Positions 27,221 through 33,457 of a DNA stretch of 64,000 bases are shown here, one piece after another; position 1 is the first letter of the stretch; every line of letters starts with the position of its first letter. The stretch is from NCBI GenBank assembly GCA_964016885.1, contig OZ024743.1, positions 21,142,001 to 21,206,000 on the forward strand, given 5' to 3'. The position numbers and the translations under genes were made by a program. The DNA comes from Eledone cirrhosa. Its lineage: Eukaryota. The notes under the pieces were generated by a model. That model did not search any database. It saw only the letters and a list, made by a program, of their open reading frames with translations, and was not told the DNA's origin.

Positions 27221-27230
27221 ACATATAAAT

Positions 27231-27400
27231 AATTGTTTCTACTTTTGGCATAAGGCCAGCAATTACCCAGTACATTACTGGTACTTTATTTTATCGACCC
27301 CGTAAGGTTGAAAGGCAAAGTGAACCTCGGCGGGATTTGAACTCAGACCGTAAAGGGACGTAACTATGCTGGAAAGCATGGCATCCGACTCTCTACCGAT
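27231..27400 (-). mobile_element. SINE family B with TSD
   Basis: Flanked by atataaataat on both sides. Confidence 0.85.
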
Positions 27401-27611: not shown

Positions 27612-27800
27612 ATGGCTGAGTGGTTAGAGAATTGGATTTGCAATCGTGAGGTTGTGAGTTTGATTCCCGGACCGGCCAATGTGTTATGTCCTTGAGCAAG
27701 ACACTTTATTTCACGTTGCTCCTTCTACCTGGAGTTGCGACCAATAGAGAGTATTAGCAATTAGAAAGACCAATAGAAACATTGTTTCCTCGTTCTGATT
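27612..27800 (+). mobile_element. SINE with family A head and a distinct 3' tail
   Basis: tRNA head, CORE-like segment, then tail accaatagaaacattgtttcctcg; same composite inverted at 31860-32060. Confidence 0.7.
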
Positions 27801-28660
27801 TGACGAAAGTCAATCGACTGTCGATATATATAATTCTAATTCTAACCTAATTTTAATTCTAGCATTAACTCTCACACAGTCATCTAACTACGGCTCTAGT
27901 TCACCTAAACTAACAATAAAACAAAATGTAAACCGTTTTTAAACAAGTTTTATCTAGTTTATTTTATTTCATTATATTCTAGCTTCTCCCCCTTAGCTCC
28001 CTATAGCTTCCTCTTACTTTTTCCTGAATTACATGCACTACAAAAAAAAAAAAAAGAAAGAAAAACTTCACATCCCGCTATGTATATATATACATATATA
28101 TATATGCGTGGACATGTGAGTCTAATGGATCTTCTCATTGATTTTGATGTATGAGGCTGCAACAGTCAAGTTCTGTTTTAGTTTTGATGTTTATGTTTCT
28201 TATGTGTCTTTAATCCAGTCAATGATTTCTAGATTAGACCACAGATTAGACATGAGAAAGGACTGTTATACAAAGCTTTTAACATGATAGATTGAATCTT
28301 CGCCTTTGCTCTCTAGGTTTTAAGATGGTTCAGAACTGCTTGTTTCATATTTTTTCATGACTTTAGAGCAAGTTAACTCCAATTCTTTGCAATTCAGTGC
28401 ATTTTTTTCAAATGTTTCTGGAAGAAAATTTGTCATTTCTAGCTTAGCTTTAATCTTGTCCTTCTCCCTCACTCAGGGTCTTCCTTCGTTTAAAGTTTCA
28501 TTGTAGGACATTTAGAATTCTTGTAGGACATTTAGAATTCTGTTGTCGTTCATTCTAACATGACAAATCCATTTTAATAAGGATTGCAAAAAAAAAAAAA
28601 GAAAAGATTCAATGCCAGCAATTTTACATTTAGATAATAGGTAAATATTTGATTTTATAT

Positions 28661-29611
28661 ATGGAAAAAATGAAATTTCATTTCTCACTCATAGTACGGC
28701 TGATACTTAAATATAAGTATGTATACGTACATACATATATGTATACAGACGTACAGTAGTATGTATATACATACATACATGCACACACATATATATGTAC
28801 GTATGGGTTTACCAAACATTTATTATAATGTTCGGTTTGTTTGTAAACAAACAGCCTGAATTAAGCCGTACAGTGTTCGGCAACCATCGTTGCTCTTTTG
28901 TTCAACACTGACAAAGGAACGATGAACGAGTTTCTAGCTTATTAGCTGTCATCAGCACCGTATACCTTCCTGTCAGTCGATTGAACGTTTGAAAGTATAT
29001 ACTTTCCTCATGCATATTAACGGCTGAGCAGCCTAATTTGCATATCGAGTGAGTTAGTCGGCCGGGCGTACCGAAAACGAAAAATGGAAAAAATGAAATT
29101 TCATTTCTCACTCATAGTACGGCTGATACTTAAATATAAGTATGTATACGTACATACATATATGTATACAGACGTACAGTACTATGTATATACATACATG
29201 CACACATATATATATGTACGTATGGGTTTACCAAACATTTATTATAATGTTCGGTTTGTATGTAAACAAACAGCCCGAATTAAGCCGTACAGTGTTCGAC
29301 AACCATCGTTGCCCTTTTGTTCAACACTGATGAAGGAACGACGAACTAGTTTCTAGCTTATGACAGCTAATAAGCTAGAAACTAGTTCATCGTTCCCGTG
29401 TCAGTGTTGAACAAAAGGGCAACGATGGTTGCCGAACACTGTACGGCTTAATTCGGGCTGTTTGTTTACAAACAAACCGAACATTATAATAAATGTTTGG
29501 TAAACCCATACGTACATATATATATATATGTGTTCATGTATGTATGTATGTATATACATAGTACTGTACGTCTGTATACATATATATATATGTACATATA
29601 CATACTTATAT
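28661..29611 (-). mobile_element. Non-coding hammerhead-bearing element: ~423-bp tandem unit plus inverted end (retrozyme/PLE-like)
   Basis: Unit 28661-29083 is partly repeated at 29084-29360, then inverted at 29360-29611, abutting (TA)n. Confidence 0.8.
28920..28960 (-). ncRNA. Minimal type I hammerhead ribozyme
   Basis: Minus strand: cggtg CTGATGA cagct-aata-agcta GAAA ctcg (ctag in sister copies) TT catcg. Confidence 0.75.
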
Positions 29612-29612
29612 G

Positions 29613-29669
<57 letters not shown>

Positions 29670-31859: not shown

Positions 31860-32060
31860 TGAAGCTTGTCAAATTGGACCGAGGAAACAATGTTTCTATT
31901 GGTAATTCCAATTGCTAATACTATCTACCAGTTACCAATCCAGGCAGAAGGAGCAATGTGAAATAAAGTGCCTTGCTCAAGACATAATGCATCACCCAGT
32001 CCAGGAATTCAACTCACAACCTCATGATTGTGAAGCCAATTCTCTTACCACTCAACCTAA
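31860..32060 (-). mobile_element. SINE, same composite as 27612
   Basis: Reverse complement of the 27612-27800 head and tail. Confidence 0.7.
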
Positions 32061-33216: not shown

Positions 33217-33271
33217 TTACTACTACTACTACTACTACTATTACTACTACTACTACTACTACTCATAATAA

Positions 33272-33457
33272 TTGTGTCTACTTTTGGCACAAGGCCAGTA
33301 ATTATCCAGTACATTACTGGTACTTTATTTTATCGACCCCGTATGGATGAAAGGCAAAGTTAACCTCGGTGGGATTTGAACTCAGATCGTAAAGGGACGT
33401 AACTATGCTGGAAAACATGTCCGACCCTCTACCGACACTGCCAATTCACCGCCCCCA
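33272..33457 (-). mobile_element. SINE family B, full length, with TSD
   Basis: TSD ctactactcataataat flanks both ends. Confidence 0.85.

What the first reader, a model, noticed from the sequence alone, without database searches (positions are those of the whole stretch)
28661..29611. 423-bp hammerhead tandem repeat whose inversion breakpoint lies inside the ribozyme
Seen: a canonical CTGATGA/GAAA hammerhead on the minus strand at 28920-28960. The unit repeats at 29084 and flips at ~29360, exactly at the stem II hairpin (tttctagctta|tgacagctaataagctagaaa). The unit has further hairpins (cagtgtt..aacactg, gtttgttt..aaacaaac, gtacggct..agccgtac). Inference: a highly structured retrozyme monomer in which the ribozyme hairpin nucleated the fold-back or template switch during reverse transcription.
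Basis: partly seen in the sequence, partly recalled or inferred. Interest (0 to 1): 0.75.

Follow-up and report, generated by a model that had tools for sequence, protein, structure and literature searches.

The report
Two-armed hammerhead retrozyme, chance junction
This is one incomplete copy of a very common short mobile repeat that carries a predicted self-cutting RNA motif; its mirror-image join lies inside that motif no more often than chance gives, because the joins of about a hundred other copies are scattered along the repeat, and the copies were likely made by a Penelope-type jumping-gene enzyme copying the RNA from both ends of a DNA break.

Summary
The features are real. A 423-bp unit with a type I hammerhead on the minus strand is followed by a 5'-truncated tandem copy and an inverted 5'-truncated copy, all inside a 12-13-bp target duplication. 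The unit is one subfamily of a clan with at least 26,639 hammerhead motifs in this 3-Gb animal genome. This layout, with a ~50-nt tail at one end and (TA)n targets, is the published footprint of Penelope-like elements. The idea that the ribozyme hairpin nucleated the inversion fails. In 102 other junctions 15 of 204 arm ends fall in the core (15.0 expected). The arms truncate independently, and 22 of 50 long/short pairs cannot be fold-back copies. This junction is a 2-nt microhomology join, off the hairpin axis. Best reading: two target-primed cDNAs start at two fixed sites (50 of 59 insertions use one of each), read through the cleavage site, and are end-joined. Cleavage, a circular RNA and the driver element are not shown. 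The scan reported the same two-armed anatomy before on other DNA of this genome, probably sister subfamilies.

The parts
28650..28662 (+). Left target-site duplication (13 nt; its last 2 nt also fit the element end)
   Evidence: Longest common string of the two flanks
28661..29083 (-). One complete 423-nt unit (37% GC, no credible ORF), 3' part of the long arm; the minus strand is the ribozyme (RNA) strand; unit position p = 29084 - window coordinate
28661..28707 (-). ~50-nt 'tail' (unit 377-423) between the short and long end sites, present at this end of the insertion only
   Evidence: Two preferred 3' ends at about 373-376 and 423-427 in 293 of 397 arms
28907..28977 (-). Type I hammerhead with extended stem I: core CUGAUGA 28955-28949, stem II 28948-28935 (C.A at 10.1/11.1), GAAA 28934-28931, palindromic stem III (A>C at 28928 in this copy), GUU with predicted cut between 28925 and 28924
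   Evidence: Sequence, family alignments, pair table; activity untested
29084..29361 (-). 5'-truncated tandem copy (unit 142-423), 95% identical to the whole unit; forms one 701-bp arm with it
29360..29361 (.). Head-to-head junction: 2-nt AT microhomology between unit positions 142-143 (left arm) and 132-133 (right arm)
29360..29611 (+). Inverted 5'-truncated arm (unit 132-373) ending at the short site; lacks the first three core bases and the 5' strand of stem I
29611..29623 (+). Right target-site duplication, followed by a (TA)n run

Best explanation
This is a single insertion of a non-coding hammerhead repeat (a non-LTR retrozyme) whose two opposed arms were likely copied by a Penelope-like reverse transcriptase/endonuclease from both ends of a DNA cut and then likely end-joined, so the junction lies in the ribozyme by chance. 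Shown by sequence: target duplication, (TA)n targets, two fixed outer ends used one per arm, independent 5' truncations, microhomology at joins, read-through of the cleavage site, and both arms from one sequence lineage. Inferred: a trans-acting Penelope protein (probably a dimer) nicks both strands 12-13 bp apart; each 3' end primes cDNA at the long (423-427) or short (373-376) site of a circular or uncleaved multimeric RNA; both cDNAs stop at unrelated points; host microhomology-mediated repair joins them. The hammerhead would cut multimers into monomers as a dimer and does not set the junction. This copy has one core with a damaged stem III palindrome and is likely dead.
For: No ribozyme enrichment: core 15 of 204 ends (15.0 expected), stem II 5 (6.8); exposure-corrected core 15 against 12.2, p 0.25; in 3'-anchored loci alone 6 of 82 against 6.0. 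Arms independent: near-symmetric pairs 10 of 102 against 9.0 by permutation; containment 23/22/5 against 21.5/23.6/4.8. One long plus one short end in 50 of 59 junctions with both ends at a fixed site (29.3 expected, p 2e-8). Microhomology of 2 nt or more in 20 of 31 insertion-free junctions against 22%. 8 of 297 passes stop at the cleavage site, within the 1-7% background. Opposed arms share rare variants 7 times more often than arms of different loci (0.0033 against 0.00045 per site), like tandem units in one arm (0.0044). The genome holds RT + C-terminal GIY-YIG frames up to 938 aa. Published match: partial tandem, adjacent inverted 5'-truncated copy and one-sided tail (PMC8557442); a purified Penelope-like protein cuts and extends both strands from two internal start sites and is predicted to dimerise (PMC11167929).
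Against: No autonomous element with homology to the unit was found among 50 GIY-YIG loci or as a shared flank among 470 arm flanks. In this locus alone the inverted arm is contained in the whole unit of the long arm, so a long-loop fold-back is not excluded by geometry here. Junction ends are not uniform: 27 of 204 fall in unit 219-241 (scan p 0.003), next to another hairpin, so structure may bias truncation somewhere. Shared variants also fit bursts from one source locus or later gene conversion. 42 of 101 junctions had an end at neither fixed site. The TSD count over many loci was uninformative (43 of 58 against 64% in shuffles) because flanks are (TA)n.
Confidence: 0.8

Rival explanations
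1. First reader's model, close to the self-priming model proposed for Penelope inverted repeats: the cDNA folds back at the ribozyme's stem II hairpin and copies itself.
For: This junction lies in the ribozyme. Self-priming at palindromes was proposed from rotifer Penelope junctions (PMC3846280, passages). Seven genome matches have the exact stem II snap-back geometry.
Against: A snap-back at stem II would give a symmetric join around the loop; this join is offset by 10 nt and uses an AT outside the stem. No enrichment in the core. 22 of 50 long/short pairs have neither arm inside the other. Of the 7 snap-back-like sites, 1 is an unrelated junction, 4 have a second arm longer than the supposed template, and 2 are compatible. 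The 4-nt AGCT palindrome is itself a microhomology.
Confidence: 0.05
2. One cDNA is primed at the target, and the enzyme then jumps to the opposite strand of a second template or of its own product at short homologies during reverse transcription; the second outer end is made by endonuclease resolution, not by priming.
For: Microhomology at joins fits template jumping as well as repair. The tail was attributed to endonuclease resolution (PMC8557442). Arms share variants.
Against: The second arm is often longer than, or not contained in, the first, so it would need an antisense multimer template. The two ends equal two start sites measured in vitro for a Penelope-like protein (PMC11167929).
Confidence: 0.1
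3. The inversion arose later at the DNA level (palindrome repair or recombination between separate insertions), or is an assembly artefact.
For: Nested insertions in (TA)n are common in these loci; the arms differ by 5-8%.
Against: One target duplication encloses both arms. Head-to-head joins number 103 against 18 tail-to-tail. Ends pair long with short. The arms are not identical, unlike a fold-back read chimera, and opposite-arm joints also appear in contigs of run X3.
Confidence: 0.05

Closest known systems
Metazoan non-LTR retrozymes (Cervera and de la Pena 2020, PMC7229834, passages and section 14 read; Li, Clavereau and Pollet 2026, 10.64898/2026.07.22.740005, part 1 of 5 and passages read)
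   Same: Non-coding 150-450-bp repeat with a type I hammerhead, GC under 50%, target duplication longer than 4 bp, thousands of copies, highly self-paired monomer, Penelope-like elements in the same genome.
   Different: The passages read describe tandem arrays only ('inverted' 0 hits in PMC7229834, 1 in the preprint); here close to half of the insertion clusters have opposed arms. No G10.1-C11.1 pair. Cleavage and circular RNA not shown. This locus fails the preprint's 'two consecutive complete hammerheads' criterion.
EN+ Penelope-like element insertions (Craig et al. 2021, PMC8557442, passages; Arkhipova et al. 2013, PMC3846280, passages)
   Same: Whole unit preceded by a 5'-truncated tandem copy, adjacent inverted 5'-truncated copy, tail at one end only, microsatellite targets, target duplication of similar length (8-10 bp there, 12-13 here).
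   Different: No ORF; the tail is ~50 nt rather than 30-40; the junction data argue against the self-priming reading of the 2013 paper, at least for this family.
Poseidon element of Anolis in vitro (Frangione et al. 2024, PMC11167929, passages and second half of the main text)
   Same: Two internal start sites bracketing the tail, AT-rich target, both strands extended, hammerhead cleavage site not used as an end.
   Different: That element encodes its protein and its inverted products were not addressed in the text read; no sequence link to this unit was tested.
Minimal dimeric hammerheads of Penelope repeats (Cervera and de la Pena 2014, PMC4209133, parts 1-2 of 4) and U10.1-U11.1 variants (Perreault et al. 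2011, PMC3088659, passages)
   Same: Type I, palindromic helix III needing a dimer; opposite-strand pairs 100-700 bp apart were already noted; U.U at 10.1/11.1 is a reported natural variant.
   Different: The window's subfamily has C.A at 10.1/11.1 with GUU; I found no report of that combination, and its activity is unknown.

Membership tests
Type I hammerhead ribozyme | Core C3 U4 G5 A6 N7 G8 A9, G12 A13 A14 A15.1, U16.1, H17 | tested here: met
   Window 28955-28925; between subfamilies the core changes only at N7 (C/U) and H17 (A/U)
Type I hammerhead ribozyme | Stems I, II and III around the core | tested here: met
   Stem I 5 bp plus extensions, with G.U/U.G and A-U exchange at 126:162; stem II 4 bp; stem III 2 bp with a palindromic loop. 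This copy breaks the palindrome (A>C at 28928)
Type I hammerhead ribozyme | Watson-Crick (usually G-C) pair at 10.1-11.1 | tested here: not met
   C.A here; U.U 76 and C.A 22 of 110 copies; U.U in 97 of the first 100 of 26,639 listed motifs. U.U is a known tolerated variant
Type I hammerhead ribozyme | Self-cleavage | not testable with these tools
   No assay; the monomer's lowest-energy fold pairs the core with the stem I 3' strand (-22.8 against -16.4 kcal/mol for the drawn active fold)
Non-LTR retrozyme | Short tandem unit with a type I hammerhead, GC under 50%, no coding frame | tested here: met
   423 nt, 37% GC, only short microsatellite-like frames; sister units of 420-502 nt in arrays
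Non-LTR retrozyme | Dispersed high-copy family with target duplications over 4 bp | tested here: met
   967 exact cores of this subfamily, 26,639 of the clan; 12-13-bp duplication here and 12 bp at L225
Non-LTR retrozyme | Two consecutive complete hammerheads (criterion for an active locus) | tested here: not met
   One complete core at this locus; 25 of 405 sampled arms hold two or more
Non-LTR retrozyme | Expressed as a circular RNA | not testable with these tools
   No RNA holder listed; contigs only
Penelope-like element footprint | Partial tandem plus adjacent inverted 5'-truncated copy, head to head | tested here: met
   103 head-to-head against 18 tail-to-tail joins
Penelope-like element footprint | Tail at one end only; microsatellite targets | tested here: met
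   50 of 59 long+short; (TA)n after most ends
Autonomous Penelope-like element | ORF with RT and GIY-YIG endonuclease | tested here: not met
   No ORF in the unit; tblastn of four genomic Penelope-like proteins gave no hit in the window
Non-autonomous derivative of a specific Penelope family | Homology to the terminal repeat of an autonomous element in the genome | tested here: inconclusive
   None in 50 of 150 listed GIY-YIG loci (10,597 candidates) apart from inserted copies

The most novel reading that the evidence does not exclude
A Penelope protein dimer copies one and the same circular retrozyme RNA from two start sites ~50 nt apart, one per target strand, runs through the ribozyme ligation site, and leaves the two cDNAs to host end joining. 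The head-to-head repeats of Penelope-like elements would then be two-ended target-primed products rather than self-primed hairpins, and this clan of over 26,000 hammerheads with a fixed 10.1/11.1 mismatch (U.U switching to C.A) would give a genome-scale test set for that step.
Probability: 0.45. Interest if true: 0.65.

Novelty: new member of a known kind. Interest (0 to 1): 0.35.

Why it matters
The locus itself is an ordinary, probably dead copy. The family data matter more. How Penelope-like elements form their tandem and inverted repeats is stated as open (PMC8557442), and self-priming at palindromes has been proposed (PMC3846280). About a hundred mapped junctions here argue against hairpin self-priming and for priming at both target ends followed by end joining, which the existing in vitro system (PMC11167929) could test directly. 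The C.A/GUU hammerhead that still spread to about a thousand sites also asks how weak a ribozyme a retrozyme can live with.

Tried and rejected
Rfam scan of the window: no hammerhead family at E<=1; the microRNA matches are microsatellite noise. RNA evidence: no RNA holder listed; laying X1 and X2 gave 0 and 1 contigs, X3 8,688 contigs of a run of unrecorded kind; nothing can be said on expression. Templated insertions at junctions: 28 of 41 against 16.6 expected, but the exact mapper turns later mutations into false insertions, so not counted as evidence. TSD counting over many loci: swamped by (TA)n. Driver search: 50 GIY-YIG loci and 470 arm flanks gave no homologue. A pile of 5' ends at the cleavage site, expected for a cut linear monomer template: not seen. 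The peak of 5' ends at unit 285 is an alignment artefact of the microsatellite, and short arms wholly inside 272-385 were filtered out before all counts. A lower substitution rate in the core (13/670 against 757/14,232 in the U.U subfamily) fits constraint but is confounded by subfamily differences. Paper searches for natural 10.1/11.1 mismatches returned 0 and 80 papers; only PMC3088659 was opened. Supplements of the cited papers were not seen and may hold junction data or hammerhead variants.

Full report
1. The observation. The region holds one insertion from 28661 to 29611. Read on the ribozyme (minus) strand, a whole 423-nt unit (29083 to 28661) is preceded by a 5'-truncated copy (29361 to 29084, unit positions 142-423, 95% identical). 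Joined head to head with it is an inverted 5'-truncated copy on the plus strand (29360-29611, positions 132-373, 92%). The arms overlap by a 2-nt AT microhomology. A 13-nt string flanks both ends (28650-28662 and 29611-29623; 12-13 bp after allowing for overlap with the element), followed on the right by (TA)n. The insertion is therefore one event.

2. The ribozyme. It is a type I hammerhead: stem I, CUGAUGA, a 4-bp stem II, GAAA, a palindromic stem III that can only pair in a dimer, and GUU before the predicted cut at unit 159/160. This copy has A>C in the palindrome; all other rows of the 30-row alignment keep A. Position 10.1/11.1 is C.A. Among 110 copies from loci sampled by a 3' anchor, 76 have U.U and 22 C.A. 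U10.1-U11.1 is a reported natural variant and the best tolerated mispair (PMC3088659, passages); C.A is untested as far as two searches showed. Between subfamilies the core changes only at the free positions N7 and H17, and stem I keeps pairing, which fits selection for function. Activity is not shown, and the monomer's lowest-energy fold hides the core. The unit folds far better than shuffles (z -8.7; other strand -6.1), with a few compensatory changes among eight units from about four lineages.

3. The family. The genome is 3.0 Gb; I did not determine the species. The window's core occurs exactly 967 times. A degenerate form occurs 26,639 times with 0 in the reversed control. Sister units are 420-502 nt and 83-91% identical. 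RT + C-terminal GIY-YIG frames of Penelope type are present, but none of the 50 loci examined is homologous to the unit.

4. From 210 loci (30 best BLAST hits plus places listed for a ribozyme anchor and a 3' anchor, mostly on contig C1) I mapped 405 arms and 103 head-to-head junctions. Leaving out the window's own, 15 of 204 arm ends fall in the core (129-159; 15.0 expected), 5 in stem II (6.8), 35 in the whole ribozyme (34.7). Correcting for exposure and anchor bias gives 15 against 12.2 (p 0.25); the 41 junctions from 3'-anchored loci give 6 against 6.0. Exact mapping gives 14 and 7. The two ends of a junction are independent: 10 pairs within 15 nt against 9.0 by permutation. A fold-back can only copy what the first arm holds, yet among 50 long/short pairs the short arm lies in the long in 23, the long in the short in 5, and neither in 22, as under permutation (21.5, 4.8, 23.6). 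Genome-wide, junctions with both ends just upstream of the stem II anchor number 15 per 32,761 anchors, against 9 per 4,296 for an anchor 35 nt downstream; the control covers fewer subfamilies, so it shows no excess rather than a true deficit. The exact snap-back geometry matches 7 places. One is an unrelated junction, four have a second arm longer than the supposed template, and two are compatible. The window's junction is not among them.

5. What the copies do show. Of 397 arms not cut by a locus edge, 138 end at 368-384 and 155 at 412-431, sharply at about 373-376 and 423-427 and mostly into (TA)n. Where both ends lie at a fixed site, 50 of 59 junctions pair one long with one short end (29.3 expected, p 2e-8); 42 of 101 junctions had an end elsewhere. 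Insertion-free joins carry 2 nt or more of microhomology in 20 of 31 cases against 22% by chance; the other 72 of 103 showed inserted or mutated bases. Copying does not stop at the cleavage site (8 of 297 passes) and arms reach 1,692 nt, so the template was a circle or an uncut multimer, not a cut linear monomer. Opposed arms share rare variants 7 times more often than arms of different loci, about as often as tandem units in one arm. None of 34 pairs covering the ribozyme plainly mixes the C.A and U.U subfamilies, though two carry more than one change. Against a purely random picture, 27 of 204 ends cluster at 219-241 (p 0.003), outside the ribozyme.

6. Mechanism. Shown: the anatomy and statistics above. 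Inferred: a Penelope-like protein acting in trans cuts an AT-rich target on both strands, each end primes cDNA at one of two start sites, both cDNAs truncate independently, and microhomology-mediated repair joins them (a role for polymerase theta is recalled knowledge, not tested). This matches the purified Anolis Poseidon protein, which extends both strands from two internal sites bracketing the tail, is predicted to dimerise, and does not need ribozyme cleavage in vitro (PMC11167929). Whether both arms come from one RNA molecule, and whether it is circular, is open.

7. Comparison with what is known. A whole unit preceded by a truncated copy, an adjacent inverted truncated copy and a one-sided tail is the described Penelope layout (PMC8557442, passages; PMC3846280, passages). 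Opposite-strand minimal hammerheads 100-700 bp apart were noted in 2014 (PMC4209133, parts 1-2 of 4). Non-LTR retrozymes and their link to Penelope elements are described (PMC7229834, passages and section 14; preprint 10.64898/2026.07.22.740005, part 1 of 5 and passages). The 2013 paper reads palindromic junctions as self-priming; this family does not follow that. I found no paper that maps such junctions at scale, from four searches of the held library, without supplements or most subscription journals. The scan's own notes report the same two-armed anatomy for 310-, 422- and 467-nt families in this genome; I had reached my reading before that look-up, took the RNA-editing test from it, and found no clear editing signal here. 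A look-up by sequence and one near this place returned nothing.

8. Verdict. A new member of a known kind; this copy is likely dead. The family-level evidence for two-ended priming is useful and testable but extends known biology. Interest 0.35.

Noticed in passing
Unit positions 219-241 (window 28843-28865 in the whole unit): Junction ends cluster here (27 of 204, scan p 0.003), in all three sampling sets, at the 5' side of the hairpin at 232-249. None pairs as a snap-back. Possibly a pause or resection stop; filtering of short arms may add to it.
   Followed up: partly
Unit 136/149 across the clan: The 10.1/11.1 position stays a mismatch through a double change, U.U to C.A, together with GUA to GUU.
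   Followed up: partly
L181:652-5632 (G000:C1:145870300-145877300), also L182, L186, L187, L192: A Penelope-like family with a 938-aa RT + GIY-YIG frame, ~1060-bp terminal repeats 4,979 bp apart and a U3/A8 variant hammerhead; a second family (L151, L152, L175 and others) has a similar U3/A8 motif. Neither is homologous to the unit.
   Followed up: partly
L196:1760-5025 and L186:1189-4937: Penelope-like coding sequence arranged as 3.3-3.7-kb near-perfect palindromes (99.7% and 97.2%), the same two-armed layout in autonomous elements.
   Followed up: no
L261-L270: Sister subfamilies with 420-502-nt units, 83-91% identical to the window unit, in longer arrays, with compensatory pairs at 216:387, 220:383 and 32:399 and the same two end sites. 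Unit sizes match the 422- and 467-nt families of earlier notes, whose sequences I could not see.
   Followed up: partly
window 27228-27380 and 33267-33419; 27614-27804 and 31868-32057; 614-671: Other dispersed repeats: a 153-bp direct pair (93%), an inverted pair of about 190 bp with a tRNA-like start (SINE-like by eye), and a tRNA-like Rfam hit (31.6 bits).
   Followed up: no
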